Below are positions 24,460 through 45,996 of a DNA stretch of 64,000 nucleotides, in pieces. This DNA comes from Cyanobacteriota bacterium (GTDB lineage Bacteria; Cyanobacteriota; Cyanobacteriia; PCC-6307; Cyanobiaceae): assembly GCA_046309395.1 (NCBI GenBank), contig JBKCPG010000120.1, forward strand, positions 10 through 64,009, written 5' to 3'. Within the stretch, counting starts at the first letter, position 1; every line of letters starts with the position of its first letter. A model generated the notes under the pieces. The model was not told the origin of the DNA and did no database searches. It worked only from the letters and a program-made list of their open reading frames with translations. The position numbers and the translations under genes are program-made.

Positions 24460-24469
24460 ACCCCGGCCT

Positions 24470-24991: not shown

Positions 24992-25196
24992 GGGGGAAGG
25001 ATCGTGGACGGGAGATGTCAATCGCGCGGGCGGTGATGTTGTGTTGGCCACTCTCGCACCGCGGGCTTGCGCGGCGAGTCCTGTGAAGGATGGTCTGTCA
25101 GCATGTGTGGCAGATGCGTATCAATGTCGACGAAGAATCACTCCTGCCCCAGAAGTGATTGGAGGACTTGTGATAACATGATTTTATGATTCGGCC

Positions 25197-26846: not shown

Positions 26847-26896
26847 CTGCCACGGTAAGTTCTGGTACGCCGCCAAAGTGTCGATCAGGTGGAGAC

Positions 26897-27724: not shown

Positions 27725-27725
27725 G

Positions 27726-29715: not shown

Positions 29716-30833
29716 GATTGCCCCATCACCAGTGAGTCTATGCTTTCAAGGATATCATAGATGTTGTCAATCTTGCTTCCTAGGATGGAATACATTCCTT
29801 TGATGCGTGAATCTTCTCTAAAAAGAATCGGCCGCCCATCGTCCGTCTCATTCTTGGTCAACACCGTTTTGATCTCAAACAGGGATTCCGCATGATGGCT
29901 CTTGGCGAGCGAGGGAAGGTATCGGCAGGCGTCACGCAACATCCGATCGACTCTGCTTTCACAGGGATAAGCATTGAGAATGTCGTAGGGAGAGAGGCCG
30001 TATTGATCTTTCCAATTGCTGTGAGGTGTGTAGCGTACGTGGGAGAGACTGTGTAAGCCACGAGCTGGAAAAGGCATCACAGAGAAGAATGGACCATCCA
30101 TGACTGTAATGCCAATACCAGCGAGAACTTCTGGTGGTTCGATGAGGCAGAGTTCGGCAATCTCATGCTTCAATTCAAACCCTGCTGTGTTCTCTGGCTC
30201 GCTTAGTTGGCCAAGGCCGCTATAGGTGCAGTTGAAGACCAGCGGTGTCCGCACGGAAAAGCTTTCCCCAGTATGGCTGACGACCTCCAGGTCGATCTCT
30301 CCCCTCTCGCCCTCCTTGCTACGCACAACTCTATGGCCAAGAAAGATGTCGATTGCAGCCTTCTGTAGCTCCCTGCCCATCCACTCCCTGAGGCGTTCCG
30401 CGTCGAACGCATACTCCTCAACTTTGAAAACCTTTTGAATCAATGCGGGATTGAATAGCCGCACAACATCCTCTTCCGCCTCGCATACCGGAGCCTCAAT
30501 CTGACTGCAAAAACGTAAAAACTGTGCCCCTGTGACCTTTGAGTTTTTCCCGGCCAAGGCATAATATTTCCTGAAATCACTCTTCACGCAGCAGTCCCAA
30601 TCTCTGCCAAAGCGACCGAAGTTTGCGTGACTGCGGTAAGCGGTTGTAAAACTACGCGGGTAGTGATAACCATTGTGCACTCGGGCTTGATTGGCATAGG
30701 AAGCCCTTCCCAGCAGAATTGGGCCCTGCTCATAAACAGACACATCGGGAATTCTCTTGACTTGTTTGAGATAGAGCGCGATGGCACAGCCGTAAAATCC
30801 GCCACCTACCACGCAGGCTTGCTTGAAAGTCAT
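29712..30833 (-). CDS. FAD-dependent oxidoreductase (DAO/L2HGDH-like)
   Basis: VVGGGFYG dinucleotide motif, ASYANQARVHNGYHYPRS, TVMDGPFFS, SKIDNIYD. Confidence 0.87.
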   Translation of the reverse strand: MTFKQACVVGGGFYGCAIALYLKQVKRIPDVSVYEQGPILLGRASYANQARVHNGYHYPRSFTTAYRSHANFGRFGRDWDCCVKSDFRKYYALAGKNSKVTGAQFLRFCSQIEAPVCEAEEDVVRLFNPALIQKVFKVEEYAFDAERLREWMGRELQKAAIDIFLGHRVVRSKEGERGEIDLEVVSHTGESFSVRTPLVFNCTYSGLGQLSEPENTAGFELKHEIAELCLIEPPEVLAGIGITVMDGPFFSVMPFPARGLHSLSHVRYTPHSNWKDQYGLSPYDILNAYPCESRVDRMLRDACRYLPSLAKSHHAESLFEIKTVLTKNETDDGRPILFREDSRIKGMYSILGSKIDNIYDILESIDSLVMGQS

Positions 30834-30845
30834 CTCAAAATGAAG

Positions 30846-31943
30846 TCATGAGAAAGATGACGTATTCCTTTGGATCTTTGTGTTGGCACCTTGATCCACC
30901 TCGATATTAAGTCGTTCTTTGCGAGTTAGCCTGGCAGAAGTAAACTCGTCGGCAATGTAATACGAAGGCCCAGAGTTTGTCTTTCTGGAGATCTCCAGCA
31001 CATACTCAGACATGATCATCAAGACCAGCGAAATAAGAAAAAACATCGCTGACTGTTGCATAGATAGGCTCACCCAGCCCGGAGCGACATCTTTCTTGAA
31101 TGCCCAAATTAAAATAATATAAATAGAGTACAGAATGCTTAAGAGGGCGCAAAATGCCGAAAGAAGCGTCGCAAATCTCATGGGCAAACTTGTGGACGAG
31201 GTCACCAGCCTGATCCCCCGGGGGATGCTTTGACGAAGATTGATATTGGGCCTGTAGTCTGGGCTGGCGGCTAGGGTAATTAATGTGCGTCTGAAGCCCG
31301 TTGAGGACCCCAAATTACGAAACTTGATCTGTGGATCTGGGTACTGCAAGAGATGGCTAACGATGCGCCGGCTGATGGCGATAAATGAGGTGGAATAAGA
31401 GTCGATCGCCATTCCGGTTGTCAGGCGTATGGCTATTCCGAATGCTCGATAAAGAACGAGATTTGGATGTTTCGCTTTCCTGGGTAATGGAGACTTTCGT
31501 GTAAAGACGACGTCATAGCCTTCGCTGGCTGTGCGAACCAATTCTTCGAGAAAAGCCAGGTCCCCTTGGCGCCAATCCAGGCAAGCCACCAGATCTCCTA
31601 AGCTGTTCTCTATGCCAACCCAGCGCGCTGTCAGGTCGTCAACATGGCCCGCAAGAGAAAAGACTTGCAAATTGGCCATCCCTTGCTCAGAGGTGAGCTG
31701 ATGGAGAATTTCCAGGGTCTCATCGGTTGAACCGTTGTCAACAATGATGATTTCGTAATCGCTGACGAGATGGGCCACGCATTCAGAGAGTTGCGTGAGC
31801 CAAGAGTCAATCTCCAGTGCCTGATTCTGTACCGTTACAACAACGCTCAACATCAAGGGCAGTTTCTTATTGATTTTATGGCTGTCTAGTTGAGGAGTCG
31901 CTTCGGCTTTGGGTTGCATATTGCTGGTATCGAGGTCTTGCAA
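30846..31943 (-). CDS. GT2 glycosyltransferase, GtrB/ArnC-like with two C-terminal TM helices
   Basis: YEIIIVDNGSTDET, GYDVV, C-terminal TM pair with PGWVSL...SEYV; start may be the later Met (MQPKAE). Confidence 0.83.
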   Translation of the reverse strand: MQDLDTSNMQPKAEATPQLDSHKINKKLPLMLSVVVTVQNQALEIDSWLTQLSECVAHLVSDYEIIIVDNGSTDETLEILHQLTSEQGMANLQVFSLAGHVDDLTARWVGIENSLGDLVACLDWRQGDLAFLEELVRTASEGYDVVFTRKSPLPRKAKHPNLVLYRAFGIAIRLTTGMAIDSYSTSFIAISRRIVSHLLQYPDPQIKFRNLGSSTGFRRTLITLAASPDYRPNINLRQSIPRGIRLVTSSTSLPMRFATLLSAFCALLSILYSIYIILIWAFKKDVAPGWVSLSMQQSAMFFLISLVLMIMSEYVLEISRKTNSGPSYYIADEFTSARLTRKERLNIEVDQGANTKIQRNTSSFS

Positions 31944-31996
31944 GCCCTGGCCACTCTACACGGAGTGCCCAGTGCTAAGCCCGCGGCTCTCGCTCC

Positions 31997-33157
31997 TCAC
32001 CCTCCGGAGCGCCCCTTGACGGCAACCACCAATCTCAGGATTCGCTCAGCCGCGTCGGCGAGAAGAGGACGGGTTTGGGCCATCGCGCTGGTCAGATCCA
32101 TAGGGCCGGGGACCAGGGAATGCAGGCTGCTCACGCCGATTCCGTGGAGGTCGCCCGAGCCGGCACCGATTTCTCCCGCGATCACCACCACTGGCACGCC
32201 CGCGGCGGCGGCGGCACGCGCCACTCCGCTGATGGTTTTGCCCCGCGCCGTTTGCCCGTCCACCCGTCCCTCGCCGGTGAAGACCAGATCGGCCCCGCTG
32301 AGGGCTTCCATGAAGCCGCTGGCGCTCAGCACCAGCTCGATCCCTGGGCGTGTCTCCGCGTTGCTCAGGGCCATCAACATGGCCCCCATGCCCCCGGCGG
32401 CCCCGGCGCCAGGCCGATCCCGCACCCGCCGCCCCGTGGCCTCTTCCAGCAGAGCCACCAAATGGGCCAGACCCGCTTCCAGCTCCGCCACCATCGCGGC
32501 CGTGGCCCCTTTTTGCGGGCCATAGATCGCCGTGGCGCCCTCGGGCCCCAACAAGGGATTGTCGACATCGCTGGCCACCTCCAGCTCGCAGGCGGCCAGG
32601 CCTGGATGCAGGCCCGTGAGGTCGAGGGCCGCCACTTGCCCCAGCTGGCCGCCGCCCATGGGCTCGTCGATGGGCTGGCCATCGGCCCTTAGAAACCGCA
32701 CCCCTAGGGCCTGGGCCATGCCAGCGCCCAGATCATTGGTGGCCGAGCCGCCGATGCCCAGGATTAGCCGCCGGGCTCCGGCGTCGAGGGCGGTCGCGAT
32801 GAGCTCGCCCGTGCCATGGCTGGTGGTTTGGAGCGGATCACGCCGCTCTGGGCTCACCAGCGGCAGCCCCGAGGCGCTGGCCATCTCCAGCACCGCCCGG
32901 TCCGCCCCCAGCCAACCCAGCTGGCCCTCCACCCGGGCCTTCTCCGCTGGCAGTGGGCCGCACACCATCACCTTCTGAAGCCAGCCGCCGGTGGCGGCCA
33001 CCAGCGCCTCGGTGGTGCCCTCTCCACCATCGGCCAGGGGGATGGGGCGGAGTTCGGCCTCTGGCACCACCCGCCGGATCCCCTCCGCCATGGCCTGGCA
33101 TGCCTGGGGGGCGCTGAGGGAGCCTTTGTAGGAATCCGGGGCCAGGACAAGTCGCAT
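31997..33157 (-). CDS. glxK: Glycerate kinase
   Basis: APDSYKGSLSA, PLADGGEGT, EMASASGL, GIGGSATNDLG, GAAGGMG, TGEGRVDGQT..GK. Confidence 0.94.
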   Translation of the reverse strand: MRLVLAPDSYKGSLSAPQACQAMAEGIRRVVPEAELRPIPLADGGEGTTEALVAATGGWLQKVMVCGPLPAEKARVEGQLGWLGADRAVLEMASASGLPLVSPERRDPLQTTSHGTGELIATALDAGARRLILGIGGSATNDLGAGMAQALGVRFLRADGQPIDEPMGGGQLGQVAALDLTGLHPGLAACELEVASDVDNPLLGPEGATAIYGPQKGATAAMVAELEAGLAHLVALLEEATGRRVRDRPGAGAAGGMGAMLMALSNAETRPGIELVLSASGFMEALSGADLVFTGEGRVDGQTARGKTISGVARAAAAAGVPVVVIAGEIGAGSGDLHGIGVSSLHSLVPGPMDLTSAMAQTRPLLADAAERILRLVVAVKGRSGG

Positions 33158-33329
33158 GGGCTTTAGGCCGCACCCTCCCCCCGCCCCGCCGCCCGCTCCG
33201 CTGGGACGGGCCTCGAAGGGAGCACGGGCGCTTGGGGCTGGGACGGCATGGCCTGCTCTCGACCGAATCTCCTTTCAGGATGACCCAAACCACGCCCTTT
33301 GGCAGGCTGGTGCAGGCGTCCCCTTCCCC

Positions 33330-34685
33330 ATGGCACTTCTGGTGTGGCCCCGCTGGGGCTTCCTCCACGTCCCCCGCCGGTCCCCTGGCCCCGGGTGTCG
33401 TCCTCGCCCATGGTCATTGGCCCTGCTCTGGCCCGCCATTCCCGCTCTGGTGGGTACGGGACCCATCGTCGGCCAGGATCCACAGGGATTTTCCCCACGG
33501 GTGATCGAGCGGCGCGCCGAGACCCGTGAGGTGGGGGGCGTCACCGTCAGCGTGGCCAGCCTGAGCGACGCGGAGGCCCACCAACTGGTGGGGTTTGATC
33601 TGGCGAGGGCCAACATCCAACCGGTGTGGGTGCGGGTGCGCAACAGCGACGACAGCCGTTACTACATTCCACCGATCACCATCGACAACGACTATTTCTC
33701 CCCCCTGGAGGTGGCCTGGCAGGGGCACCGCTTCTTGGATCCCACTGGCAACGCCCGTCTCGACGCCCGCCTGCGGGGGCTGGATCTGCCGGAGTCGGTG
33801 GATCCCGGCGGCACCATCAGCGGCTATGTGTTCACCAACCGGGATGAGGGCATCAAATACGCCGATGTGGAGCTGGTGGCCCCGGGACGGCGGAGGGTGC
33901 GCCGCCTCTCGTTTCTCACCCGGGTGCCCGGGCTGCGGACGGATTTTCAGCGGGTGAATTGGGAGCATCTGCTGAAGCCCGGCCGGATGACGGCGCTCAC
34001 CGAAGCCCAGCTCAAAACCTGGCTGGAGTCTCTTCCCTGCTGCACCCTGGGCGGGGATCGCCGCACCCCCGCCGATCCGCTCAACATCGTGCTCATTGGC
34101 CCGGCCGAGGCCGTGTTCCCACCCCTGGCCCGGCGCGGGTGGCATGTCACCCAAACCCTCTCGGCGGAATCGATCTGGCAAACCATCACCTCCTCCCTCT
34201 TTGGCCACCGCTACCGCTATGCCCCGGTGTCGCCCCTCTATGTGTTTGGCCGTCCGCAGGATCTGGCTTTGCAGAAGGGACGCGGCGATGTCAACCAGCG
34301 CAACCACATGCGGCTTTGGCTGGCGCCGGTGACGGTGAGCGGCACACCGGTATGGGTGGGCCAGATCAGCCGCGACATTGGCGTCCGTCTCACCCGCAAG
34401 ACCATCACCACTCACAAGATCGACCCTTCCGTGGATGAAACTCGCTGGTATTTGATGCAAGACCTCTATTTCTCGGAGGGCTTGGAGCGCTTTGGTTTTG
34501 TCACGGGGGTGGGCGCGGCCCCTCCGGAGCGGCCCCGCTTCAACTACACCGGCGACCCTTACGAGACCGATGGCCTGCGCGCCGTGCTGTGGATGTCCGC
34601 CAAGCCCGTGAGCTACCACCGGGTGGCCACCCAGTGGCCGCCGCCGAGGGGGCCTGCGCCGGGCACCAGGCGACTCAGTCCTTAG
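33330..34685 (+). CDS. Exported protein with LssY-like C-terminal domain
   Basis: Hydrophobic N-terminus; PADPLNIVLIG, RYAPVSPLYVFGRPQDLA, RNHMRLW, HKIDPSVDETR; start inferred at MALLVW. Confidence 0.75.
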   Translation: MALLVWPRWGFLHVPRRSPGPGCRPRPWSLALLWPAIPALVGTGPIVGQDPQGFSPRVIERRAETREVGGVTVSVASLSDAEAHQLVGFDLARANIQPVWVRVRNSDDSRYYIPPITIDNDYFSPLEVAWQGHRFLDPTGNARLDARLRGLDLPESVDPGGTISGYVFTNRDEGIKYADVELVAPGRRRVRRLSFLTRVPGLRTDFQRVNWEHLLKPGRMTALTEAQLKTWLESLPCCTLGGDRRTPADPLNIVLIGPAEAVFPPLARRGWHVTQTLSAESIWQTITSSLFGHRYRYAPVSPLYVFGRPQDLALQKGRGDVNQRNHMRLWLAPVTVSGTPVWVGQISRDIGVRLTRKTITTHKIDPSVDETRWYLMQDLYFSEGLERFGFVTGVGAAPPERPRFNYTGDPYETDGLRAVLWMSAKPVSYHRVATQWPPPRGPAPGTRRLSP

Positions 34686-36823
34686 GGTTGCTCGTGCTCC
34701 GAGTGCTCCTCGGACTCCACCACCTCCCAGATTGGAATCTCCCCTTGGCCCTTCACGGTGACGGGGGGTAGAGCCTTGAAGGTGTAAAGCCCGCGCAAGG
34801 TCTCCACGATGGGGGACGACACCTGGATCACATTGTGCTTGGGGGAGTCGTTGATGCCGCGGGCGATGTGGATGGTTTGGCCCCAGATGTCAAACGAGAG
34901 CCGCTCGCCCCGCACCACACCAGTGGTGAGGGGCCCCGCGTGCAAGCTGATGTCGAGGAAGAGGCGCACGTTGTGTTTCCGGTTGAAGCCCCGCATGACT
35001 CGCAGCATGGCTAAGCCGCAATCCACGGCGCGCTTTTCATGGTCGACGCGCAGCCGCGACAGGCCACTGACGGCCAGATAGGTGGTGCCCACATCCTGGA
35101 GTTTTTCCACATCAAAGCGTTTCACGGTGTCATCCAGCGCGATGGTGAGTTCGTTGAGCAGACGCATCGAGCGTTCGTCGGAAAGGCTTTGGGAGAGATC
35201 ATTCCAGCCCTCGATTTCAGCGAAGAGCACGGTGACATTGGGATGGGATTCGGCAACGGCTTTGGCCCCCTCCCCAAGGCGTGAAGCGGCGCTGCCGGGG
35301 AGAATACTGAGCAGGAGTCGTTGGTTTTCCTCCACCTGCCGCTGGAGCGACCGCTCCCGCTCATCGAGTCTGTTCGACATGGTGTTGAAGGCGGTGGCCA
35401 GATCGCCGAACTCGTCATTAGCGGCCACTGGAATCTGGACGTTGTAGTCGCCTGAGCTGATTTTTTCGGTGGCGGCCAGCAAGTGGCGAACGGGCCGAAT
35501 GAAGGCCCGCGCCATCCACAGGGTGAGGAAGGCCAAGGCCGGAATCAACAGGGTCGCCAGCAAGAGCAGGTTGCGGGTCAAACTGCCAACGCCGCTGAAG
35601 AGTTCAGCCTCATCAATCTCGGCGAGCAAGCCCCACTCCATGGGGCCAAATTGGATGGGTTGATAGGAGGCGACAACGGGAATGCCCCGGTAATCCCTGT
35701 AGGTGGTGGTGCCGGTTTTCCCCGCCAAAGCATTCAGGGCCCCGACGGTTTTCACGGGTTGCACCAAAATGGGGGTGCCATTCTGTCGAATGGCTTCAAC
35801 TTTACTTTGGGAAAGTCCGGCTTTCTGGGCGATTTTAAGATATTGTTTCGGACTCTCCAGGAAAAATCTTGGCGAGGAGCGAAAGGTGGTGTCCTGGCCG
35901 ACGAGGTAGGTCTCGCCACTGGCGCCCATGCCCACCTCTCGCCATTTGCGATTGGAAGTCATCAGGTTGTCGATGCGCTTGTTGGTGAGCTGAAAGATCA
36001 AGGCGCCGATGAAGTTGTCGCCATCAAACACGGACGTTCCCACTAACATGGTGGGCCTGCCTAAGCTGGGGGCGTAATTGGAAAAATCACTGAAAGTGAT
36101 AAAAAATGGATCTTTCGATTTCTTGATGGCTTGGAACACCTTGGCGGCTGCCGAGTTGGCGTAGGGGCCTGTAAGGAGATTGGTGCCCAGGTCGTCTTCT
36201 TTGGATGTGTTGTAGACAATATTTCCCGTCTTGATATCGGCAAGCATGATGTCTTGATAGTCAAAAAGTTGTGCCAGGCGGGCAAAGCGCTCATGATAGT
36301 CCTGATGCACGCCAGTCCAGGCGCTGCCGTCTTTTGCGTCCACCATGGAGGTCGAATCAGTTTTGGCGGTGGTGCCGCTTGAGACGATGTAGTGGTATTT
36401 GATATAGCGCTCGCTGGCTCGGTCGGGGCTATTCGTAATCATCCCTGGATCGCTGGTATTGTCCTTTTTTAGCTTGGGGATGAACTGGGTATCGTAATAT
36501 GCTCGTAGCTGTTTTTTCTGCGCTTCGTTAATGTCCGGAAGTTGATTGAAGGCGTCAGTGAACCGCTTTGCGGCATCCACGGTCATGCGGGCTTCTGAGA
36601 GGGTCATCACATGGTTCCCCAGGCGTTCCACATACTCACTCAAGGCGACCGCCTGGCTGCCGCGCATGGCGGTGAGCCGTTCGTAGCCCGTTTCAGACAG
36701 CAGGTGGCGCGCCACGCCAAAGCTCAAAAAGCCCGTGAACAATAGGCTCACCAGGCTGGCCGAGAGCACCAGGGCGATGAGCTTGGATTGCACCCCAAAT
36801 GTCCGAAAGAAGTTCTTGAGCAT
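34682..36823 (-). CDS. Membrane sensor-HAMP-class III nucleotide cyclase-like protein (catalytically degenerate), paralog A
   Basis: Two TMs around a large extracytoplasmic Cache-like domain, HAMP (DEFGDLATAFNTM), cyclase fold VTVLFAEI/FDIWGQT; start set by alignment with paralog B. Confidence 0.88.
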   Translation of the reverse strand: MLKNFFRTFGVQSKLIALVLSASLVSLLFTGFLSFGVARHLLSETGYERLTAMRGSQAVALSEYVERLGNHVMTLSEARMTVDAAKRFTDAFNQLPDINEAQKKQLRAYYDTQFIPKLKKDNTSDPGMITNSPDRASERYIKYHYIVSSGTTAKTDSTSMVDAKDGSAWTGVHQDYHERFARLAQLFDYQDIMLADIKTGNIVYNTSKEDDLGTNLLTGPYANSAAAKVFQAIKKSKDPFFITFSDFSNYAPSLGRPTMLVGTSVFDGDNFIGALIFQLTNKRIDNLMTSNRKWREVGMGASGETYLVGQDTTFRSSPRFFLESPKQYLKIAQKAGLSQSKVEAIRQNGTPILVQPVKTVGALNALAGKTGTTTYRDYRGIPVVASYQPIQFGPMEWGLLAEIDEAELFSGVGSLTRNLLLLATLLIPALAFLTLWMARAFIRPVRHLLAATEKISSGDYNVQIPVAANDEFGDLATAFNTMSNRLDERERSLQRQVEENQRLLLSILPGSAASRLGEGAKAVAESHPNVTVLFAEIEGWNDLSQSLSDERSMRLLNELTIALDDTVKRFDVEKLQDVGTTYLAVSGLSRLRVDHEKRAVDCGLAMLRVMRGFNRKHNVRLFLDISLHAGPLTTGVVRGERLSFDIWGQTIHIARGINDSPKHNVIQVSSPIVETLRGLYTFKALPPVTVKGQGEIPIWEVVESEEHSEHEQP

Positions 36824-36849
36824 GGTTTGAGCGGGGGGCTTGAGGCCGA

Positions 36850-38337
36850 TCACGTGGCGCTCGGAAGTTTTGCTCCCGTCGCGCCTTGTTGGAGTGCCGC
36901 GATGGCTCGTTGTCGGATGTCGGTGACGCCTTTCAGATCCCTCGCGAGACGGGGATGGTCATCTAGGAGGGCGGCCAGGTTTTTCCCTTCAATCACCATC
37001 ACCCGCACATCGGTTGCCGCTCGCACGGTGGTATCGGCGACGCGGTTGTGCAGGAGGATCACTTTCTCTCCAAAACATTCACCCGCGCACAGGATGCCTA
37101 AGGACGCTGGAGCGTGGCCCGGTTGGTTCAGGAAGACCTCCGCCTCGCCTTCGAGAATGAGTTGCAGGCCGGTGAGGGGAGTGCCCTGCTGAAGCACCAC
37201 TTCGCCCATGGCGTAGTCCCGCACCAGGGAGATGGTCGCCAGCCGTTCGAGATCGGCCGCGGGCAACACCGCGAAGGCGGAGTCGCGAAGAACCCGCAGA
37301 CGCTCCTTTTGCCTCCCCGCTGGCTGGCTGACGGCGGGCTCGCTGTAGGGGATGGAGATCCGCGTTGGGTAGGGAATGGTGAGGCCTTCGCGTCGAGCGA
37401 CGTACCAGACACGTCGCATCAGCTCGTCAGCCAGTCCACCTGCCTGCCCAAAGCTGGGGCAAGCAAACTTCAAAACATAGCTGATGGAAGAATCGTTAAA
37501 GCTGACCAGTTCGGCTGAGGGTGGCGGATCGTTGAGGACGCCCTCAATCTCTTGCACCGTCTCTTCCAGCATCTCCTTGACCGCGTTGGGAGGATCATTC
37601 AGGGAGAAGTTGATATGGATCGATTGGATGTAGCCCTCTGTCGGTCTGCTCATGTTGGTGAAGCTGGTTTTCCCCAGCTCCGAGTTGGGCACCACCACCA
37701 GATCATCATCCCCGGTGAGCAGGTGCACGGCACGCCAATTCACCTCCACCACCCGGCCCGCTTTGCCGTTCACTTCCACCCAGTCGCCAAGGCGAATGGG
37801 CTGCTCAAACAACAGGGCCACCCCGGAAAAGATGTTGCCCAGGCTGTCTTGCAGGGCTAAGCCCAACACCAGCGATCCCACTCCCAGGGCCGTGAGGAAC
37901 CCCCCCAGGTCGGCCCCCCACACGGTGGAGAGCACGATCGATGAGCCCAGCAGCACCAGAATGAAGCGTCCCAGATCCCGGAACAGTTGGGGCACTTTGG
38001 CCTGCCAGCTTCCCTGGGAGGCGCCCTCGAAAAGAACGCTGTTGAGGAGGGTGAGCGCCCCATAGATCAGGCTGATCCACAGCAGGGTTTCCGCGATCCG
38101 CACCTGCACGGTGCCCCGTCCCAGGCCGATCACCTCCGCCAGCAGCACGAAGAGGGTGAGGGAGGGGATCACCCAGTTGCGCAGGATGCGCACCGCGGGG
38201 AGGAACGGATGGCGGCGGCGCTGGAGGCGACGGGTGGCCTCGCTGAGCAGCACCATGGCGATCGGGAAGCCAAAGATGAGCGCCGATACCCAACCCAGCT
38301 GGCCAGCGGTGATCGCGGAGGACACGACAGGGTTCAT
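36850..38337 (-). CDS. MscS-family mechanosensitive channel with C-terminal cNMP-binding-like domain
   Basis: GVGSLVLGLALQDSLGNIFSG, GDWVEV, VVEVNWRA, VPNS; C-terminal GECFGE...TVRA. Confidence 0.92.
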   Translation of the reverse strand: MNPVVSSAITAGQLGWVSALIFGFPIAMVLLSEATRRLQRRRHPFLPAVRILRNWVIPSLTLFVLLAEVIGLGRGTVQVRIAETLLWISLIYGALTLLNSVLFEGASQGSWQAKVPQLFRDLGRFILVLLGSSIVLSTVWGADLGGFLTALGVGSLVLGLALQDSLGNIFSGVALLFEQPIRLGDWVEVNGKAGRVVEVNWRAVHLLTGDDDLVVVPNSELGKTSFTNMSRPTEGYIQSIHINFSLNDPPNAVKEMLEETVQEIEGVLNDPPPSAELVSFNDSSISYVLKFACPSFGQAGGLADELMRRVWYVARREGLTIPYPTRISIPYSEPAVSQPAGRQKERLRVLRDSAFAVLPAADLERLATISLVRDYAMGEVVLQQGTPLTGLQLILEGEAEVFLNQPGHAPASLGILCAGECFGEKVILLHNRVADTTVRAATDVRVMVIEGKNLAALLDDHPRLARDLKGVTDIRQRAIAALQQGATGAKLPSAT

Positions 38338-40526
38338 CGGGAGGAGGCCTCCTTTGGCTGAGAGTGCTCCCCATCGCTTGGGTGTTCAACCACCCCTTCC
38401 ACCTCCCAGATGGGGATCTCTCCATGGCCCTTGATGGGGATGGCCAGGAGAGGCCTGAAGCGATAGAGCCCACGCAAGGCCTCGGCGATGGGTGCGGAGA
38501 CCTGGATCACGTTGCGCTTCGGGGATTCGTGAACGCCGCGGGCGATGTTGATGGTTTGGCCCCAGATGTCGAAGGAGAGCCGTTCGCCACTCATCACGCC
38601 GGTGGTGAGGGGGCCCGCGTGGACACCAATGTCGAGACTGATGTTCACGCCGTGGGCCTGATTGAAGCGCTTCATCAGCCCCAGCATGGCCAATGCGCAA
38701 TCCACAGCCCGCTTCTCATGGTCGATGCGGGGACGGGATAGGCCACTGACGGCGAGGTAAGACGAGCCCACATCCTGTAGTTTTTCCACATCAAATCGTT
38801 CCGCGCAGTCATCCAGGGCGCTGGTGAGTTCATTGAGCAAGGCGATGGATTCCTCCACGGGACGGTTTTGGGCCAGGTCATTCCACCCCTCAATTTCCGC
38901 GAAAAGCACGGAAACGCTGGGATGGGTTTCGGCGATGGCCGAGGCCCCCTGTTTCATGCGGGAGGCCGCGCTGCCAGGCAGGATGCTCCGCAGCAACCTG
39001 TCGTTTTCCTCCACCTGATGCCTCAGGGTGTCTTCCCTCTCCCCGAGCTTGTCGGACATGGTGTTGAAGGCCGTGGCGAGATCGCCGAATTCGTCATCGG
39101 CCGCCACGGGGATTTGGATTTGGTAATCGCCTGAGCCGATCTTCTCGGTGGCATCCAGAAGGCGCCGGATCGGCCGAATGAAGGCCCGGGCGATCCACAG
39201 CGTCAAGAAAGTGAGGGCGGGGATCAAAACGGCCGCGAGGAGGAGAAGGTCGCGGGCCAGGCGGCGGATGCCGCTGAACAACTCGGCTTGATTGATCTTG
39301 GCGATCAAGCCCCACTCAAAAGGGCCAAAGCGAATGGGTTGATAGGAGGCGACAGAGGGAACCCCCTTGTAATCGGTGTAGTGGATCGTGCCGGTACGTC
39401 CCGCCAGGGAATTGGCTGCGGCCTGGGTTTTGACGGGCTGCACCAACACTGGCGTGCCGGTTCTTCGGATCTCCTCGATCTTTTTTTCAGAGAGCCCGTT
39501 TCTTTTGGCAATCTCTAGATATTGTTTTGGGTTTTCAAGAAATGTTCTGGGTGAGGAACGGAAGAGGCTGTCTTCTCCCACAAGGAAAGTTTCGCCGCTG
39601 AGTCCCATTCCCACCTCTTTCCATCTGCGATTCGCTGTCATCAAATTGTCGATTTTCTCGTTGCTGAGCTGGAAGATCAAGGCCCCCACAAATTCTTCAC
39701 CATCGAACACGGTTGTTCCCACAAACATTGTGGGCTTGCCAAAGCTAGGCTTGTATTGTTCGAAGTCGCTGAAAGTAATAAAGAAGGGATCTTTCGACTT
39801 TTTCACCTCCCGAAACACTTTGGCCTCGGCCGACTCCGCATAGGGGCCGGTGAGAAGATTCGTCCCCAGGTCGTCTTCTTTGCTAATATTGTAAACAACA
39901 TTGCCGGTTTTGATGTCGACGAACACGATGTCTTGATAGCCAAACAGCTCAGCCAGGCGTGAAAAGCGGCGGTGGTATTCCTTGTGCACGCCGCTCCAGG
40001 TGCTGCCGTCGTTGGCGTCCTCCGCCGCCCTCCGTATTGTGCTTGCGTTGGCGGTAGGCTCTTTGCTTCCGCCACCTGTGTTCTTCACATTGTAATGGTA
40101 TTTGAGATAGCGCTCTGCTGAGCGCTCGGGAATGTATGTGGCGGCCTTTGGTTCGCCAGGCATCTTTTGCCTGAGTTTGGGAATAAAGTCGGTTTCGTAG
40201 TACCTCTTCAGCTGGCCTAGCTGGGTTTCGTTGATCGCGGGGAGTTGGTTGTAGGCCTGGGTGAAACGCTTGATGCCGTCAATTGTCATGCGCGTCTCAG
40301 ACAGGGTCATCACATGATCTGAGAGCTGCTCCACATAATCTTTGACCCCTTCCGCCCGCGCGTTGCGCAAGGTGTTGAGCCGTTGGTAGCCCGCATCCGC
40401 CAGCAGGTGTCGCGCCACGCCAAAACTCAGCAGCCCGGTCAACAGCAAGCTCACCAGGCTGGCCGTGAGCACCAGGCTGACCAGCTTGGATTGCACCCCA
40501 AAATTTCGCCAAAATCTTCTCAGCAT
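38334..40526 (-). CDS. Membrane sensor-HAMP-class III nucleotide cyclase-like protein (catalytically degenerate), paralog B
   Basis: Same architecture as paralog A and clearly similar along its length (FGVQSKL, KEDDLGTNLLTGPYA, KDPFFITFSDF). Confidence 0.88.
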   Translation of the reverse strand: MLRRFWRNFGVQSKLVSLVLTASLVSLLLTGLLSFGVARHLLADAGYQRLNTLRNARAEGVKDYVEQLSDHVMTLSETRMTIDGIKRFTQAYNQLPAINETQLGQLKRYYETDFIPKLRQKMPGEPKAATYIPERSAERYLKYHYNVKNTGGGSKEPTANASTIRRAAEDANDGSTWSGVHKEYHRRFSRLAELFGYQDIVFVDIKTGNVVYNISKEDDLGTNLLTGPYAESAEAKVFREVKKSKDPFFITFSDFEQYKPSFGKPTMFVGTTVFDGEEFVGALIFQLSNEKIDNLMTANRRWKEVGMGLSGETFLVGEDSLFRSSPRTFLENPKQYLEIAKRNGLSEKKIEEIRRTGTPVLVQPVKTQAAANSLAGRTGTIHYTDYKGVPSVASYQPIRFGPFEWGLIAKINQAELFSGIRRLARDLLLLAAVLIPALTFLTLWIARAFIRPIRRLLDATEKIGSGDYQIQIPVAADDEFGDLATAFNTMSDKLGEREDTLRHQVEENDRLLRSILPGSAASRMKQGASAIAETHPSVSVLFAEIEGWNDLAQNRPVEESIALLNELTSALDDCAERFDVEKLQDVGSSYLAVSGLSRPRIDHEKRAVDCALAMLGLMKRFNQAHGVNISLDIGVHAGPLTTGVMSGERLSFDIWGQTINIARGVHESPKRNVIQVSAPIAEALRGLYRFRPLLAIPIKGHGEIPIWEVEGVVEHPSDGEHSQPKEASSR

Positions 40527-40657
40527 GTGGTGCGTCGGCTGGGGAATTCCCGTGCATCACAGAGTGTGGCCCGACGGGCTTCCCTCTGGTGGTTGTCTAA
40601 AAAGAAATGCACAAACCCGTCGGGCTCCCGTTCCCGGGAGGGAGCCCTGGCCAGCGC

Positions 40658-41455
40658 CTAGTCGACGGCGTGGGCGTGGCGGCGGAAGAGAAAGTCCATG
40701 GCGTGGTTCCGGAGTTGGCCGTACCGGGGATCCTCTTGGATCGCCTCGTACACTCGTGGCCGAGGGAAGGGCACCTCCAGGATCTCACCGATGGTGGCGG
40801 CAGGTCCGTTGGTCATCATCACGATCCGATCCGCCAGGAAGAGGGCTTCATCGATGTCGTGGGTGATCATCAGCACGGTGGGCTTTCGCTCCCGCCAGAT
40901 CGCCAGCAATTCTTCCTGGAGCTCCTCCTTGGTGATGGCATCGAGGGCCCCGAAGGGCTCATCCAGCACGAGCACGGCGGGCTGTACAGCCAGGGCCCGG
41001 GCAATGGCCACCCGTTGCTTCATGCCCCCGGAAATCTGCCCCGGGCGCTTCTCGGCCGCATCCGTGAGGTGCACCATCTCCAGGTGGTGGTTCACCACCT
41101 GGCGCCGCCGCGACCCATCCAGCTCCGGCCGGGCCGCCTTCACGGCCAGCTCCACGTTTTGGCGCACCGTTTGCCAGGGAAGCAGGGAGTAGTTCTGAAA
41201 CACCACCATGCGATCGGGGCCGGGTTTTTCGATCGGCCGCCCTTCCAGGGTGACCCGTCCGCTGCTGGGCTCCAAAAAGCCGCTCACCATGTTGAGCAGG
41301 GTGCTCTTGCCACAGCCGGAGTGGCCAATCACGCAGACGAACTCCCCCTGGCCCACCCGCAAGTTGACATCCCGCAGGGCTTCATAGCCCCCCCGTCGGG
41401 TGTGAAACACTTGGCCGACGTCGGCGAATTCCAGAAACGCCTGGCTACCGCTCAT
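40658..41455 (-). CDS. nrtD: Nitrate/nitrite ABC transporter ATPase
   Basis: GHSGCGKST, ISGGMKQR, LDEPFGALD; start at MSGSQAFLEF. Confidence 0.9.
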   Translation of the reverse strand: MSGSQAFLEFADVGQVFHTRRGGYEALRDVNLRVGQGEFVCVIGHSGCGKSTLLNMVSGFLEPSSGRVTLEGRPIEKPGPDRMVVFQNYSLLPWQTVRQNVELAVKAARPELDGSRRRQVVNHHLEMVHLTDAAEKRPGQISGGMKQRVAIARALAVQPAVLVLDEPFGALDAITKEELQEELLAIWRERKPTVLMITHDIDEALFLADRIVMMTNGPAATIGEILEVPFPRPRVYEAIQEDPRYGQLRNHAMDFLFRRHAHAVD

Positions 41456-41456
41456 C

Positions 41457-43502
41457 TCAATCGCTCCCGGTGGAAGAAAGGGACACCGACTCCCGGGTCC
41501 GGGGATAGGCCACCAGCGCCACGGGGGGCTCGGGGGCGCCGGGCAGGGCCCGCAGGTAAGCCAGGGGATCATCCTGGTGGAAGGGGATTCCGTCGGCCAG
41601 GGCGAAGGGGCGCCGATCTGGCCGCAGCACGGGATAACCCGCCGCTTCCAGGGCGCGGTCGCAAAGGTCGGGCCGGTACACCTGGGACAGGATCTCCAGC
41701 CGATTGCTCGGGAAGGGACACCATCCCCAGCGGCTGAACTGGCTCAGGATCCAGGCCCCCTCGGCCCGGTTGGGAATGTGAGCCCGATCGGTGTGGTAGC
41801 GGTTGAAGGCCAACAGCTGCCGGGGCGGGTCTCCCGTGCCGGTGTCGAATTGGCGGCCCAGGGCGATGGCGGCCCGGGTGCCGAGCCACTGGGGTTGGCT
41901 GAGCACCCGCGTGAGCTCTGGACGTTTGGCCCCGTCATCACAGCGTTCCGCCGCCCGCATCAGGCCCACGCAGAGGGCCTCCAGGGCGTCGCCATGGCGT
42001 TCAGCCCAGTTTTCGGAGCAGGTGAGCACCTTCTCCGGATGGCCGCTCCAGATGTCCAGGTCGGTGGCCAGCACAAAGCCTTGCCTGTCCTCCACCGCTT
42101 CGGCCACCCGGTAGCGGCCGGCGATGAAGCTGTCGATTCGTTCGCCCCGCAGGGCGCCATGCATCGCCAGGGGGGAGAGGGCCACAAAGGTCGCCCGCTC
42201 CTCCGGATCCAGGCCTCCCGCGGCCAGCCAATGCCGCAGGAGCAGTTCAGCGATGCCGTGGCGCTGGGGCACGCCGATCCGCAATCGCTCGCCGCGCCCC
42301 CTGAGGTACCGACTGAGGCTCTCGCGATCCCTCACCCCCTCGCTGAGCAAGGAGCGGGCCAGGCAGAGGGCATTGCCGTTGCGGCTCACGGTCATGGGCG
42401 TGATGGCGGGCCAAGGCCCCTGTCCATTGAGCCCAAGGGCGAGGGCAAGAGGGGTGGTGGCGGCCGTGATGGCTCCATCCAGCTCCCCGCTCACGAGTTT
42501 CTCCTCAAGCCGCTCCCAGCTGGCGAAGGTCACCGGAACCACCTCCAGCCGGCTGGTGTCGAAAAGGTTGTCGGCCAGTGCCAGGGCCAGCGGCGCGATG
42601 TCCAGCCCCGGGATAACCCCCAACCGCACCGTGGTGGCCCCGCTGGTCCGCGCAGGCCCAGTGAGGACAGGGGGGGCGGACGAGCGGGCCATGTCCTTCT
42701 CCCGCTCAGCCCGTCGCTGGCGCAGCCGCCTCTGTTGCTGCAGGAATCCGATGAGCTCCGTGCGGAGCTGGTAATAGGTGGGGTGGTCCATCACCTCAAG
42801 CCGATGGCGAGGACGGGGGATGGGTACCTCCAGGATTTGGCCGATCTGGGCTTCCGGGCCGTTGGTGAGCATCACCACCCGATCCGAGAGCAGCAGGGCC
42901 TCATCCACATCATGGGTCACCATCACCGTGGTCACCCCCGACTCCTGACAAATGCCCATCAGCTGTTCCTGCAGGTTGCCGCGGGTGAGGGCATCGAGGG
43001 CGCCGAAGGGCTCGTCCAGCAGCAGCAGGCGGGGCCGGATGGCGAGGGCGCGGGCGATGGCCACCCGCTGCTTCATCCCCCCGGACAACTCACTGGGCAG
43101 CTTGTCGGCCGCTGGACCCAAACCCACCATGGCGATGGCTTGATCCACGGTGGCCCGCCGCTCGGAGGCACTTTTATGACCCATCACCCGGTTCACCGCC
43201 AGGGCGATGTTTTGGCGCACGTTCTGCCAGGGCAGCAGGGAATAGTTCTGGAACACCACCATGCGATCCGGCCCCGGTTCCGTGACCTCGCGCCCATCCA
43301 TCAAGATGCCGCCGCCGCTGGCCTGGGTCAGGCCCGCCATCAAGTTGAGCAGGGTGCTCTTGCCACAACCGGAGTGGCCGATCAAGGAGACAAATTCGCC
43401 CTCTGCGATTTCCAGGTCGATATCCTTGAGGGCCACATAGCGGCCACCGTCCACCAAGGGAAACACCTGGGTGACATCGTCAACCGTGAGGAACGCCGCC
43501 AT
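41457..43502 (-). CDS. nrtC: Nitrate/nitrite ABC transporter ATPase with C-terminal regulatory domain
   Basis: ATPase domain plus NrtA-like C-terminal domain (SRNGNAL, HPEKVL); start at MAAFLTVDD. Confidence 0.92.
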   Translation of the reverse strand: MAAFLTVDDVTQVFPLVDGGRYVALKDIDLEIAEGEFVSLIGHSGCGKSTLLNLMAGLTQASGGGILMDGREVTEPGPDRMVVFQNYSLLPWQNVRQNIALAVNRVMGHKSASERRATVDQAIAMVGLGPAADKLPSELSGGMKQRVAIARALAIRPRLLLLDEPFGALDALTRGNLQEQLMGICQESGVTTVMVTHDVDEALLLSDRVVMLTNGPEAQIGQILEVPIPRPRHRLEVMDHPTYYQLRTELIGFLQQQRRLRQRRAEREKDMARSSAPPVLTGPARTSGATTVRLGVIPGLDIAPLALALADNLFDTSRLEVVPVTFASWERLEEKLVSGELDGAITAATTPLALALGLNGQGPWPAITPMTVSRNGNALCLARSLLSEGVRDRESLSRYLRGRGERLRIGVPQRHGIAELLLRHWLAAGGLDPEERATFVALSPLAMHGALRGERIDSFIAGRYRVAEAVEDRQGFVLATDLDIWSGHPEKVLTCSENWAERHGDALEALCVGLMRAAERCDDGAKRPELTRVLSQPQWLGTRAAIALGRQFDTGTGDPPRQLLAFNRYHTDRAHIPNRAEGAWILSQFSRWGWCPFPSNRLEILSQVYRPDLCDRALEAAGYPVLRPDRRPFALADGIPFHQDDPLAYLRALPGAPEPPVALVAYPRTRESVSLSSTGSD

Positions 43503-43503
43503 G

Positions 43504-44346
43504 TCAGTTCGACCCCCGGGCGACTCGGCGACCCACCCAGGCCACCAACCTGTCGAGGGCCAAACCCACCAGACCCACGTAGAGAATCGCCAGGATGATT
43601 TGGCTGGAACTTGAATCCCCACCGGCGTTGTACGCGTCCCAGATGAAGTAGCCAATGCCTCCATCGGCCTTGAGCATCTCGGCGGCCACGATGGCCAGCC
43701 ATGCCAGGCCCACGGCGATCCTCAACCCGGTGAACACATAGGGGACGGTGGCCGGAATCACGATGTTGCGGATGTATTCACCTTTGCGCAGCCGCAACAC
43801 ACGCGCCACGTTGGTGTAGTCCTGGGGAATTTCCCGGATGCCCACGGCCGTGTTGATGATGATCGGCCAGATGGCGGTGATGAAAATCACAAAGATCGCC
43901 GAGATGTTCGCGTCTTGGAACACCATCAGGGAGATCGGGAACCAGGCCAGGGGAGGCACAGTGCGTAGCACCTGAATGATGGGGTCGAGGCCTTTGCCAA
44001 GGAAACGACTCAGGCCCAACAGCCCGCCGATGCTGACGCCCGCCAGGGCGGCCAGGCCATAGCCCAGGGCCACGCGCCGCAGGGAGATCAGGATCTGCCA
44101 ACCCAATCCTTTACTGGTGCCACCGTTGTCAAAAAACGGCTGGCTGATGTAGGGATTCCAGGTGTCAGCCACCACATTGATCGGCCCGGGTAGCCGGGAC
44201 ACCCCCAGCAGCAGGGAGAGGATCTGCCAAACCACCAGAAAGCCGCCGATACAGATGAGGTAAGGCAACAGGAGACGTAGGCCGGGCTGAAGGAAGCCCG
44301 CACGGTTGGCCGCCCGCTGCCGGGCCGCGGGGGAGGTGAGGGCCAT
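43504..44346 (-). CDS. nrtB: Nitrate/nitrite ABC transporter permease
   Basis: KGLGWQILISL, LRTVPPLAW, IWPIIINTA, TGLRIAVGLAWLAIVAAEM. Confidence 0.93.
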   Translation of the reverse strand: MALTSPAARQRAANRAGFLQPGLRLLLPYLICIGGFLVVWQILSLLLGVSRLPGPINVVADTWNPYISQPFFDNGGTSKGLGWQILISLRRVALGYGLAALAGVSIGGLLGLSRFLGKGLDPIIQVLRTVPPLAWFPISLMVFQDANISAIFVIFITAIWPIIINTAVGIREIPQDYTNVARVLRLRKGEYIRNIVIPATVPYVFTGLRIAVGLAWLAIVAAEMLKADGGIGYFIWDAYNAGGDSSSSQIILAILYVGLVGLALDRLVAWVGRRVARGSN

Positions 44347-44348
44347 TG

Positions 44349-45668: not shown

Positions 45669-45996
45669 AACCTGGGCTGAATGCTGGGGATGGAGGGTGA
45701 GGGCGTGTCACATCGACGACCACCAGCCAGGCGAAGCCTCCACCGCCGACTCTGGCGGAAAGGACGCGTCGTGGTGGGCGCGTTGAAAACGATCGGGATA
45801 AAAGATCGTTTCCCGCGATGGTGACTGAGCCTTGGAGAGGATCAGAATGGATTTCGGCCACCGGACGATGGGAGAGCGGGCCGGGGCTGAATCGGCGTGC
45901 TCCAATAAAGAAGCGCACTTAAAAATTTGGGTTGGCGCGCAGGCTGACCAACCGCATTACTCAACCATCCGCCCGCCCGGGGCAATGTCGCATCAG

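What the first reader, a model, noticed from the sequence alone, without database searches (positions are those of the whole stretch)
34682..40526. Two pseudo-cyclases flanking an MscS channel: a probably nucleotide-independent sensor-channel system
Against the class III consensus, both paralogs have the first metal Asp as Glu (LFAEI). The KIKTIGD loop reads KLQDVGT or KLQDVGS, losing the substrate Lys and the second metal Asp. The N-x3-R transition-state motif reads HIARG or NIARG. Both lack the same residues, so a heterodimer cannot complement. They keep large extracytoplasmic sensor domains and HAMP and are translationally coupled to the channel. From memory, M. tuberculosis Rv2435c/Rv2434c is a similar single cyclase-like/MscS-cNMP pair of unknown function (to be verified). 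Inference: ligand-sensing receptors that gate the channel through protein contact, with two paralogs giving two inputs or a heterodimer.
Basis: partly seen in the sequence, partly recalled or inferred. Interest (0 to 1): 0.72.

Follow-up and report, generated by a model that had tools for sequence, protein, structure and literature searches.

The report
Dead-cyclase receptors paired with MscS channel
A freshwater cyanobacterium encodes an MscS-type channel between two membrane receptors whose "cyclase" domains have lost their catalytic residues. The channel's cyclic-nucleotide-binding domain has also lost its key arginine, so this widespread gene pair (also found in mycobacteria) probably signals by direct protein contact, not by cAMP.

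Summary
Three minus-strand genes fill 34682-40526: cycA (dCache-HAMP-cyclase homology domain), an MscS channel with a C-terminal cNMP-binding fold, and cycB (68% identical to cycA). Both cyclase domains read E / Q / S or T / D / N or H / G at the six class III catalytic positions, so a heterodimer cannot complement.

This is not private to the window. In 69 of 76 informative genome loci from several phyla, and in a Mycobacterium, the same receptor gene sits directly upstream of the same channel type. None of 67 distinct channel-linked cyclase domains keeps all six catalytic residues, and only 2 keep the second metal Asp. Yet the domain is under purifying selection (dN/dS 0.14-0.23).

The channel's phosphate-binding cassette also lacks the canonical Arg (Ala here, Ser in most relatives). 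A sister clade of MscS-cNMP channels with a canonical cassette never has this receptor neighbour (0 of 37); where it has a cyclase nearby, that cyclase is fully canonical.

Best reading: a ligand-sensing receptor coupled to the channel without a messenger. Physical contact, ligand and lack of activity are inferred, not shown. A few relatives keep five of six residues, and an Arg lies two residues upstream in the cassette, so residual nucleotide signalling is not excluded.

The parts
38334..40526 (-). cycA: receptor pseudo-cyclase, 730 aa (TM1, periplasmic dCache, TM2, HAMP, signalling helix, cyclase homology domain)
   Evidence: ORF and translation; Pfam; homologs P0001-P0120
39267..40406 (-). 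cycA periplasmic sensor (residues 41-420): double-Cache fold with an extra helical insertion of about 100 aa
   Evidence: AlphaFold2 pLDDT 92. Foldseek best hits are dCache ligand-binding domains Mlp24, CtaA, PctA, McpH
39045..39197 (-). cycA HAMP domain
   Evidence: Pfam PF00672, E 1.5e-16
38403..38933 (-). cycA cyclase homology domain. Hexad reads E544 / Q584 / S588 / D653 / N660 / G664, with Arg at 663. Motifs: LFAEIEGW 38883-38906, KLQDVGS 38763-38783, FDIWGQTINIARG 38535-38573
   Evidence: Alignment to AC5 C1/C2; coordinates checked; dN/dS 0.14-0.23
38334..38337 (-). ATGA overlap of cycA stop with channel start; AGGAGG lies 8 nt upstream
   Evidence: Sequence
36850..38337 (-). MscS-type channel, 495 aa, about five TM helices by eye, with a C-terminal cNMP-binding-fold domain
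   Evidence: Pfam and NCBIfam; homologs P0121-P0240
36955..37221 (-). Channel cNMP-binding-fold domain (Pfam stretch, residues 373-461)
   Evidence: Pfam E 2.7e-14; AlphaFold2 pLDDT 92.7 with best Foldseek hits PKG CNB-B, CRP, GlxR
37018..37083 (-). Non-canonical phosphate-binding cassette GECFGEKVILLHNRVADTTVRA. Ala434-Asp435 replace Arg-Ser/Thr; an Arg (R432) lies two residues upstream
   Evidence: Register confirmed by canonical relatives whose Arg falls in the Ala434 column
34682..36853 (-). cycB: paralogous receptor pseudo-cyclase (723 aa from the GTG; the likely ATG start is at 36823). Hexad reads E / Q / T / D / H / G. Motifs: 35204-35227, 35084-35104, 34856-34894
40527..40657 (-). 131-nt spacer between nrtD and cycA; probable promoter or read-through region
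   Evidence: Sequence. A metatranscriptome contig covers 40526-40759 (weak evidence)

Best explanation
This is a three-gene operon of a freshwater Cyanobium-like picocyanobacterium. It is an expanded copy of a deep, multi-phylum two-gene module, of the type of mycobacterial Rv2435c/Rv2434c. The module consists of a dCache-HAMP receptor ending in a cyclase homology domain (CHD), followed by an MscS-type channel ending in a cNMP-binding fold.

In this module the CHD has lost the residues needed to make cAMP or cGMP. The channel's binding fold has lost the Arg that holds the cyclic phosphate.

The most likely mechanism is as follows. A periplasmic ligand binds the dCache domain. The signal passes through HAMP and the signalling helix to the CHD dimer. 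The CHD dimer then acts as an output domain, not an enzyme, and contacts the channel (most plausibly its cNMP-binding-like domains) to open or close it. The two paralogous receptors would give two ligand inputs or form a heterodimer.

Shown: architecture, residue losses, purifying selection, conserved adjacency and the cycA-channel overlap.
Inferred: lack of activity, physical contact, direction of control and the ligand.
For: Architecture and residues.

Family-wide degeneracy:
- 0 of 67 distinct channel-linked CHDs keep all six catalytic residues.
- The second metal Asp is kept in 2 of 67, the transition-state Arg in 14 of 67.
- Catalytic columns rank 81-162 of 173 in conservation, apart from the substrate-defining Asp (45th), although the CHD is the best-conserved of the soluble domains.
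- CHD dN/dS is 0.14-0.23, like the other domains.
- The signalling helix (ENDRLL..LP) is nearly invariant.

Adjacency:
- The receptor gene lies immediately upstream on the same strand in 69 of 76 informative genome loci. These come from Cyanobacteria, Planctomycetota, Verrucomicrobiota, Bacteroidota, Bdellovibrionota and Proteobacteria.
- The same holds in a Mycobacterium, with a 4-nt overlap, and in two channels only 33% identical to the window's.

Channel cassette:
- It lacks Arg in all 75 locus channels and all 120 closest homologs.
- The mycobacterial one also lacks the Glu.

Contrast clade:
- MscS-cNMP channels with canonical GEPR[ST]A form a separate clade.
- None has the receptor neighbour: 0 of 5 look-ups and 0 of 32 metagenome loci.
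- The CHD proteins found near 11 of them carry the complete catalytic set.
Against: No experiment or complex model shows contact. An MscS heptamer and a CHD dimer do not match in symmetry.

Six relatives lack only the second metal Asp (DKSDNR). L098 and L103 keep both metal Asp, Lys, Asp and Asn and lack only the Arg. Catalysis may therefore survive in parts of the family, while their channels already have the altered cassette.

The window's channel keeps FGE and has R432 two residues before the canonical Arg site, conserved in its subclade. A shifted binding mode is possible.

The family was named 'cyclic nucleotide gated' by its discoverers (Caldwell 2010, cited in PMC13591265). I could not read that paper.

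The canonical and non-canonical channels are two deep clades. The association with the receptor therefore reflects one or a few ancient events, not many independent ones.
Confidence: 0.5

Rival explanations
1. Local cyclic-nucleotide signalling persists. The CHDs keep weak or unorthodox activity, or pair with a catalytically complete cyclase encoded elsewhere. The channel binds the product through an altered cassette, with R432 taking the place of the canonical Arg.
For: The CHD fold, the substrate Asp (FDIWG) and the KG.G motif are kept. Some relatives have five of six catalytic residues. FGE and a nearby Arg are kept in the window's cassette. The channel family was published as cNMP-gated (citation), and genome papers annotate it as cAMP-regulated (PMC7522525).
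Against: Both window paralogs lack a carboxylate at the second metal site, and also lack the Lys and a correctly placed Arg. Catalytic columns drift freely across the family. R432 is not conserved outside the picocyanobacterial subclade, and the Ser/Thr position is acidic (Asp or Glu), which should repel a phosphate. No other cyclase or cNMP-binding gene lies in the 64-kb window.
Confidence: 0.2
2. The cNMP-binding fold has been re-tuned to another small ligand (a metabolite), as in some CRP/FNR relatives, or is held by an intrinsic ligand. The pseudo-cyclases are accessory regulators, or nucleotide (ATP) sensors, and are not the primary gate.
For: The fold is intact and predicted with confidence. 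Ser plus Asp, Glu or Pro at the Arg-Ser/Thr positions is itself conserved, which suggests a selected pocket and not a decayed one. Seven loci carry the same channel type without a receptor neighbour.
Against: About 90% adjacency and overlapping genes argue for an obligate partnership. No candidate ligand can be named from the data.
Confidence: 0.15
3. This is an ordinary osmotic safety valve with two decaying, functionless cyclase genes next to it.
For: The MscS core motifs are fully conserved.
Against: dN/dS is 0.11-0.23 for all receptor domains that could be scored. The ORFs are intact and conserved across phyla. The review states that bCNG channels did not protect E. coli against hypo-osmotic shock.
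Confidence: 0.04
4. This is a Pycsar-like anti-phage system: a cyclase plus a membrane effector with a cNMP-binding domain.
For: There are weak PADLOC hits to PycC (30.9 and 17.6 bits) and to Pycsar effector cNMP-binding domains (23.5 bits or less).
Against: The scores reflect shared domains only. The cyclases are periplasm-sensing membrane receptors without catalytic residues. The locus has stable chromosomal synteny (nrt operon on one side, LssY_C and glycerate kinase on the other) in related genomes.
Confidence: 0.01

Closest known systems
Mycobacterial Rv2435c / Rv2434c-type gene pair
   Same: Same two-gene module. A receptor of about 728 aa (dCache-HAMP-cyclase) overlaps by 4 nt an MscS + cNMP_binding protein of about 470 aa (L081). 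The receptors are 32-34% identical over the full length. The catalytic positions are also degenerate (FADIVGL / VRTLHNGYLA / NLAYQ), as is the cassette. Rv2435c is reported to carry a dCache domain (PMC4822843).
   Different: The window has a second receptor gene downstream of the channel. Different residues are substituted: the first metal Asp is kept in mycobacteria, and the cassette Glu is lost there. H37Rv itself was not examined here; a Mycobacterium sp. assembly was.
bCNG channels (bacterial 'cyclic nucleotide gated' MscS-like channels; Caldwell et al. 2010)
   Same: An MscS-like pore domain plus a C-terminal cNMP-binding domain, mostly cyanobacterial. They give no osmotic protection in E. 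coli, and the role of nucleotides in gating is unresolved (review PMC13591265).
   Different: The window's channel and its whole clade lack the phosphate-binding Arg. A separate clade has the canonical cassette. I could not check which clade the tested channels belong to.
Mammalian adenylyl cyclase C2 domain (and the inactive IIC2 homodimer)
   Same: The motif is C2-like, with Ser in place of the second metal Asp: EKLQDVGSSYLAVSGL versus EKIKTIGSTYMAASGL. A dimer of such domains has no complete active site (established knowledge of class III cyclases).
   Different: C2 keeps Lys, Asn and Arg and is completed by C1. Here no C1-like partner is encoded, and Lys and Arg are also lost.
Cyclic-nucleotide-binding homology domains of KCNH (EAG/ERG) channels
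   Same: A channel-attached cNMP-binding fold that lacks the key Arg and does not use cyclic nucleotides (PMC5806680).
   Different: The channel superfamily is unrelated (voltage-gated K+ versus MscS). No intrinsic ligand has been shown here.
Receptor pseudokinases and other pseudoenzyme receptors
   Same: The catalytic fold is kept under selection, the catalytic residues are lost, and output is presumed to go through protein contacts.
   Different: The fold is different, and the analogy is functional only.

Membership tests
Catalytically competent class III nucleotidyl cyclase | Cyclase homology domain fold | tested here: met
   Pfam PF00211, E 7e-34 and 2e-29. PDB hits to AC5, AC9 and mycobacterial Cya.
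Catalytically competent class III nucleotidyl cyclase | Two metal-binding Asp | tested here: not met
   Glu at the first site and Ser or Thr at the second, in both paralogs.
Catalytically competent class III nucleotidyl cyclase | Substrate-defining Lys (or Glu) and Asp (or Cys/Thr) | tested here: not met
   Lys is Gln; the Asp of FDIWG is kept.
Catalytically competent class III nucleotidyl cyclase | Transition-state Asn-x3-Arg | tested here: not met
   NIARG in cycA and HIARG in cycB. The Arg is one position early, and Gly sits at N+4.
Catalytically competent class III nucleotidyl cyclase | cAMP or cGMP synthesis | not testable with these tools
   Needs an enzyme assay or cya- complementation.
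MscS-family channel | Pore helix and beta-domain motifs | tested here: met
   PF00924, E 6.6e-21. NCBIfam MscK, MscS and MscM stretches. GLALQD..GN..SG is invariant in the family.
Cyclic-nucleotide-gated MscS-like channel (bCNG in the literal sense) | C-terminal cNMP-binding fold | tested here: met
   PF00027, E 2.7e-14. AlphaFold2 plus Foldseek hits to PKG CNB-B and CRP.
Cyclic-nucleotide-gated MscS-like channel (bCNG in the literal sense) | Phosphate-binding cassette with Gly-Glu ... Arg-Ser/Thr-Ala | tested here: not met
   Gly-Glu is kept, but Ala-Asp sits at the Arg-Ser/Thr positions. The register is fixed by canonical relatives.
Cyclic-nucleotide-gated MscS-like channel (bCNG in the literal sense) | Gating by cAMP or cGMP | not testable with these tools
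   Needs binding assays and patch clamp.
Rv2435c/Rv2434c-type receptor + channel module | A dCache-HAMP-CHD gene immediately upstream of, and on the same strand as, an MscS-cNMP gene | tested here: met
   Window; 69 of 76 genome loci; Mycobacterium.
dCache_1 extracytoplasmic sensor | Double PAS-like fold between two TM helices | tested here: met
   Pfam scores of 44.5 and 45.8 bits against a cut-off of 45. Model pLDDT 92 with dCache ligand-binding domains as best hits.
dCache_1 amino-acid sensor subclass | Y..R.WY...Y...D ligand motif (recalled from Gumerov et al. 2022) | tested here: inconclusive
   No R-x-W-Y motif was seen by eye in the distal module. No profile for the subclass was available.
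Pycsar anti-phage system | A PycC cyclase with catalytic residues plus a cNMP-activated effector, in a defence context | tested here: not met
   Only weak domain-level PADLOC hits. The catalytic residues are absent. The synteny is that of a housekeeping locus.

The most novel reading that the evidence does not exclude
A complete second-messenger pathway (receptor cyclase, then cNMP, then cNMP-binding channel) has been short-circuited into a hard-wired, messenger-free receptor-channel complex. The cyclase fold and the cNMP-binding fold survive only as protein-protein coupling modules. This arrangement would be conserved across at least seven bacterial phyla, including the uncharacterised Rv2435c/Rv2434c-type pair of mycobacteria.
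Probability: 0.4. Interest if true: 0.8.

Novelty: new variant of a known kind. Interest (0 to 1): 0.68.

Why it matters
The channel family is known as 'cyclic nucleotide gated', and its cyclase neighbours are annotated as adenylate cyclases that feed it. If the receptor cannot make a nucleotide and the channel cannot hold one, three things follow.

First, the annotation of this whole receptor-linked channel clade is misleading. So are counts of 'adenylate cyclases' that include its receptors, among them those of Mycobacterium.

Second, the module would be a clear case of an enzyme-messenger-receptor chain collapsing into a direct relay.

Third, it offers a testable answer to the open question of what gates these MscS-like channels, which do not behave as osmotic valves.

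The split into a canonical clade and a receptor-bound clade gives experimenters matched positive and negative controls.

Tried and rejected
- **Pycsar-like defence.** PADLOC gave only weak domain-level hits, so I rejected it.
- **Natural fusion as proof of contact.** L068 has one ORF joining receptor residues 2-497 to channel residues 65-489. The junction puts a cytoplasmic HAMP directly before a helix that normally runs from outside to inside. It is therefore more likely a deletion or assembly artefact.
- **Literature.** I found no accessible text on the activity of Rv2435c. The body of PMC2447327 is not held, and the two bCNG primary papers are not held either.
- **Expression.** One metatranscriptome gave short contigs on the channel and across the nrtD-cycA spacer only. 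This is too thin for an operon map.
- **Other cyclase or cNMP-binding genes in the window.** There are none.
- **Promoter and terminator scan of the locus.** The results were not above shuffled expectation.
- **Ligand class of the dCache domain.** The fold search confirms the fold but not a ligand.
- **Fisher tests of the cassette-partner association**. These are not valid as independent evidence, because the two channel classes are two deep clades.
Full report
**What is there.** The interval 34682-40526 holds three consecutive minus-strand genes.
- cycA (38334-40526, 730 aa) and cycB (34682-36853, 723 aa) each contain a TM helix, a periplasmic region of about 380 aa, a second TM helix, a HAMP domain, a signalling helix and a class III cyclase homology domain (CHD). 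Pfam scores for Guanylate_cyc are E 7e-34 and 2e-29, and for HAMP about 1e-16.
- The middle gene (36850-38337, 495 aa) is an MscS-family channel with a C-terminal cNMP_binding domain (E 2.7e-14).
- The two receptors are 68% identical over 707 aa.
- The cycA stop and the channel start overlap as ATGA, with AGGAGG 8 nt upstream.
- The channel stop overlaps a GTG, but the ATG that aligns with Met1 of cycA lies 26 nt downstream at 36823.
- An AlphaFold2 model of the cycA periplasmic region is confident (pLDDT 92). It matches double-Cache ligand-binding domains such as Mlp24, CtaA, PctA and McpH, and carries an extra helical insertion of about 100 residues.

**Organism and context.** The closest named relatives are freshwater Cyanobium MAGs at 70-75% identity. 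Identical copies occur in JGI freshwater metagenomes and about 20 freshwater runs.
- Directly upstream on the same strand lies nrtABCD (40658-45668). A 131-nt spacer follows before cycA.
- Downstream lie a convergent LssY_C gene and glycerate kinase.
- The same context occurs in related genomes.

**Checking the catalytic residues.** HMMER alignment with mammalian AC5 C1 and C2 fixes the register. The table gives the residue at each catalytic position.

| Position | cycA | cycB |
|---|---|---|
| First metal Asp | Glu (LFAEIEGW) | Glu |
| Substrate Lys | Gln | Gln |
| Second metal Asp | Ser (KLQDVGS) | Thr (KLQDVGT) |
| Substrate Asp | kept (FDIWG) | kept |
| Transition-state Asn | kept | His |
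| Transition-state Arg | one residue early (NIARG) | one residue early (HIARG) |

The loop resembles the mammalian C2 motif EKIKTIGSTYMAASGL. Both paralogs lack the same functions, so a heterodimer cannot rebuild a site.

**This is a family property.** A scan of one genome per species with a channel alignment gave 80 loci.
- In 69 of 76 loci with enough flank, a full-length receptor of the same family lies immediately upstream on the same strand.
- The hosts include Cyanobacteria, Planctomycetota, Verrucomicrobiota, Bacteroidota, Bdellovibrionota and Proteobacteria.
Rv2435c is reported to carry a dCache domain (PMC4822843).

Among 67 distinct channel-linked CHDs:
- None has all six catalytic residues.
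- Six have five (D-K-S-D-N-R, lacking only the second metal Asp), and 46 have two or fewer.
- The second metal Asp survives in 2, the Arg in 14, the Asn in 26 and the Lys in 37.
- Five of the six catalytic columns rank 81st to 162nd of 173 CHD columns in conservation. The substrate-defining Asp ranks 45th.
- The CHD is nevertheless the best conserved of the soluble domains.

CHD dN/dS is 0.14-0.23, like the dCache and HAMP domains. The fold is therefore maintained by selection while the chemistry is not, which is the signature of a pseudoenzyme.

**The channel's nucleotide pocket.**
- The phosphate-binding cassette reads GECFGEKVILLHNRVADTTVRA.
- The best PDB match is the third cNMP-binding domain of Plasmodium PKG, which I recall from the literature to be the degenerate, non-binding one. 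In the alignment to a domain of that protein that carries the Arg-Ser-Ala motif, Ala434 falls at the phosphate Arg and Asp435 at the Ser/Thr.
- All 120 closest homologs and all 75 locus channels lack the Arg. Most have Ser there, followed by Asp, Glu or Pro.
- The mycobacterial channel also lacks the Glu.
- The fold itself is intact: pLDDT 92.7, with best matches PKG CNB-B, CRP and GlxR.

**A contrast clade.** A search of 1.8 billion representative proteins showed more distant MscS-cNMP channels with a textbook cassette, GEMxLLTGEPR[ST]ATV. Their Arg falls exactly in the Ala434 column.
- These form essentially one separate clade.
- None of five looked up has a cyclase neighbour.
- A metagenome scan seeded with them gave 71 canonical channels. 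Of the 32 with at least 2.3 kb of upstream flank, none has the dCache-HAMP-CHD receptor.
- Eleven of the 71 (nine of them among those 32) have a different CHD protein within 4 kb. In the ten whose sequence is complete, that CHD carries the complete catalytic set: FSDIRGFT, DKFVGDMVMA, YTVIGDAVNLGSRLE. The eleventh (L113) is cut off at the contig end.
- Of the non-canonical channels in the same scan, 6 of 7 informative loci carry the family receptor.
- Two distant non-canonical channels (33% identity to the window's) also have the receptor upstream, again with degenerate residues.

Because the two classes are two deep clades, this is one or a few ancient events, and my Fisher values are not independent statistics. 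The pattern is still clear. Channels that look able to bind cNMP stand alone or near real cyclases. Channels that do not look able to bind it are tied to a receptor that does not look able to make it.

**The second receptor.** The closest genomes (L001-L003) have only the upstream receptor. The window, L004 and L087 have receptor-channel-receptor. A neighbour-joining tree places cycB inside the picocyanobacterial clade, alongside several other paralog groups. The dCache domains are the most diverged part of the pair, at 65% identity against 81% for HAMP. This is compatible with different ligands but does not prove it.

**Mechanism.** I consider a messenger-free relay most likely (confidence 0.5). 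The ligand binds dCache, the signal passes through HAMP and the conserved signalling helix to the CHD dimer, and the dimer contacts the channel's cNMP-binding-like domains. Only the anatomy, the residue losses, the selection and the linkage are shown.

Caveats:
- Members such as L098 and L103 keep both metal Asp, Lys, Asp and Asn.
- The window's cassette keeps FGE and has an Arg two residues early, conserved in its subclade.
- The family was published as nucleotide-gated. A 2026 review says the role of nucleotides in gating is unknown and that the channels do not protect against osmotic shock (PMC13591265).
- Marine Synechococcus genome work annotates the same neighbourhood as cAMP synthesis next to a cAMP-regulated MscS (PMC7522525).

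**Rivals.**
- Residual local cNMP signalling (0.2).
- A re-tuned pocket for another ligand, with the receptors as accessory regulators (0.15).
- Decaying genes beside an ordinary valve (0.04; contradicted by dN/dS).
- Pycsar-like defence (0.01).

**Novelty.** The gene pair and the channel family are known. I did not find the following described in the literature I could reach: the systematic loss of catalytic residues in the linked receptors, the matching loss of the cassette Arg, and the contrast with a canonical stand-alone clade. I therefore rate it a new variant of a known kind.

Noticed in passing
window 40658-46692: A nitrate/nitrite ABC transporter operon nrtA-B-C-D (TIGR01183/TIGR01184) and a nitrate-reductase-associated protein lie directly upstream of cycA on the same strand. 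Only 131 nt separate nrtD from cycA. A GC-rich hairpin (GGCTCCC...GGGAGCC) follows the nrtD stop. One metatranscriptome contig runs from the nrtD 3' end to the cycA start codon.
   Followed up: partly
window about 24000-32000: GC drops from about 65-70% to about 50%. This stretch carries glycosyltransferase family 2 genes, a polysaccharide pyruvyl transferase, an epimerase, a FAD oxidoreductase and a xylose-isomerase-like TIM barrel. It is probably a horizontally acquired surface-polysaccharide island.
   Followed up: partly
window 33156-34685 (+): A 509-aa protein with an LssY_C domain converges on cycB, and the gene ends overlap by 4 nt. The same gene follows the module in L001-L003 and L087, so it is a conserved neighbour within this Cyanobium clade only.
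   Followed up: partly
L001-L003 about 3640-4675; L087 2279-3313; L094 6537-8435; L095 3845-5968: A PstS-like periplasmic binding protein gene (PBP_like_2) recurs next to the module. It lies immediately upstream of the receptor in close relatives. A 632-707 aa form lies immediately downstream of the channel in two distant lineages. It is absent from the window. It could be a co-receptor.
   Followed up: partly
L068 665-3406: A single 914-aa ORF joins receptor residues 2-497 (through HAMP) to channel residues 65-489, deleting the cyclase domain and the first channel helices. The topology is inconsistent, so it is likely a deletion, a pseudogene or a MAG artefact.
   Followed up: yes
cycA residues about 92-195 (window about 39942-40253): An extra helical subdomain of about 100 residues sits between the N-terminal stalk helix and the first PAS-like module of the dCache. 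It contains residues that are invariant out to Mycobacterium (Tyr110, Pro133, Tyr145, Asp173). It is specific to this family and its role is unknown.
   Followed up: no
L098 1732-3888; L103 1761-3926: These family-type receptors keep both metal Asp, Lys, Asp and Asn and lack only the transition-state Arg, yet their channels already have the Arg-less cassette. They are possibly the least decayed members and would be good experimental comparators.
   Followed up: partly
L138, L143, L150, L155, L164 (upstream, same strand); L116 (downstream): Canonical-cassette MscS-cNMP channels lie 1-2 kb from class IIIb-type cyclases with a complete catalytic set. These may be genuine cyclase-channel pairs that use cAMP.
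   Followed up: partly
L092/L093 817-4758: A 1313-aa TIR + TPR protein lies directly upstream of a canonical-cassette MscS-cNMP channel (P0294).
   Followed up: no
L049, L052, L056, L058, L059, L066, L073: Crocosphaera, Cyanothece and Hyella channels of the Arg-less type have no receptor gene within 4-7 kb upstream. Either the partner is encoded elsewhere or it has been lost.
   Followed up: no
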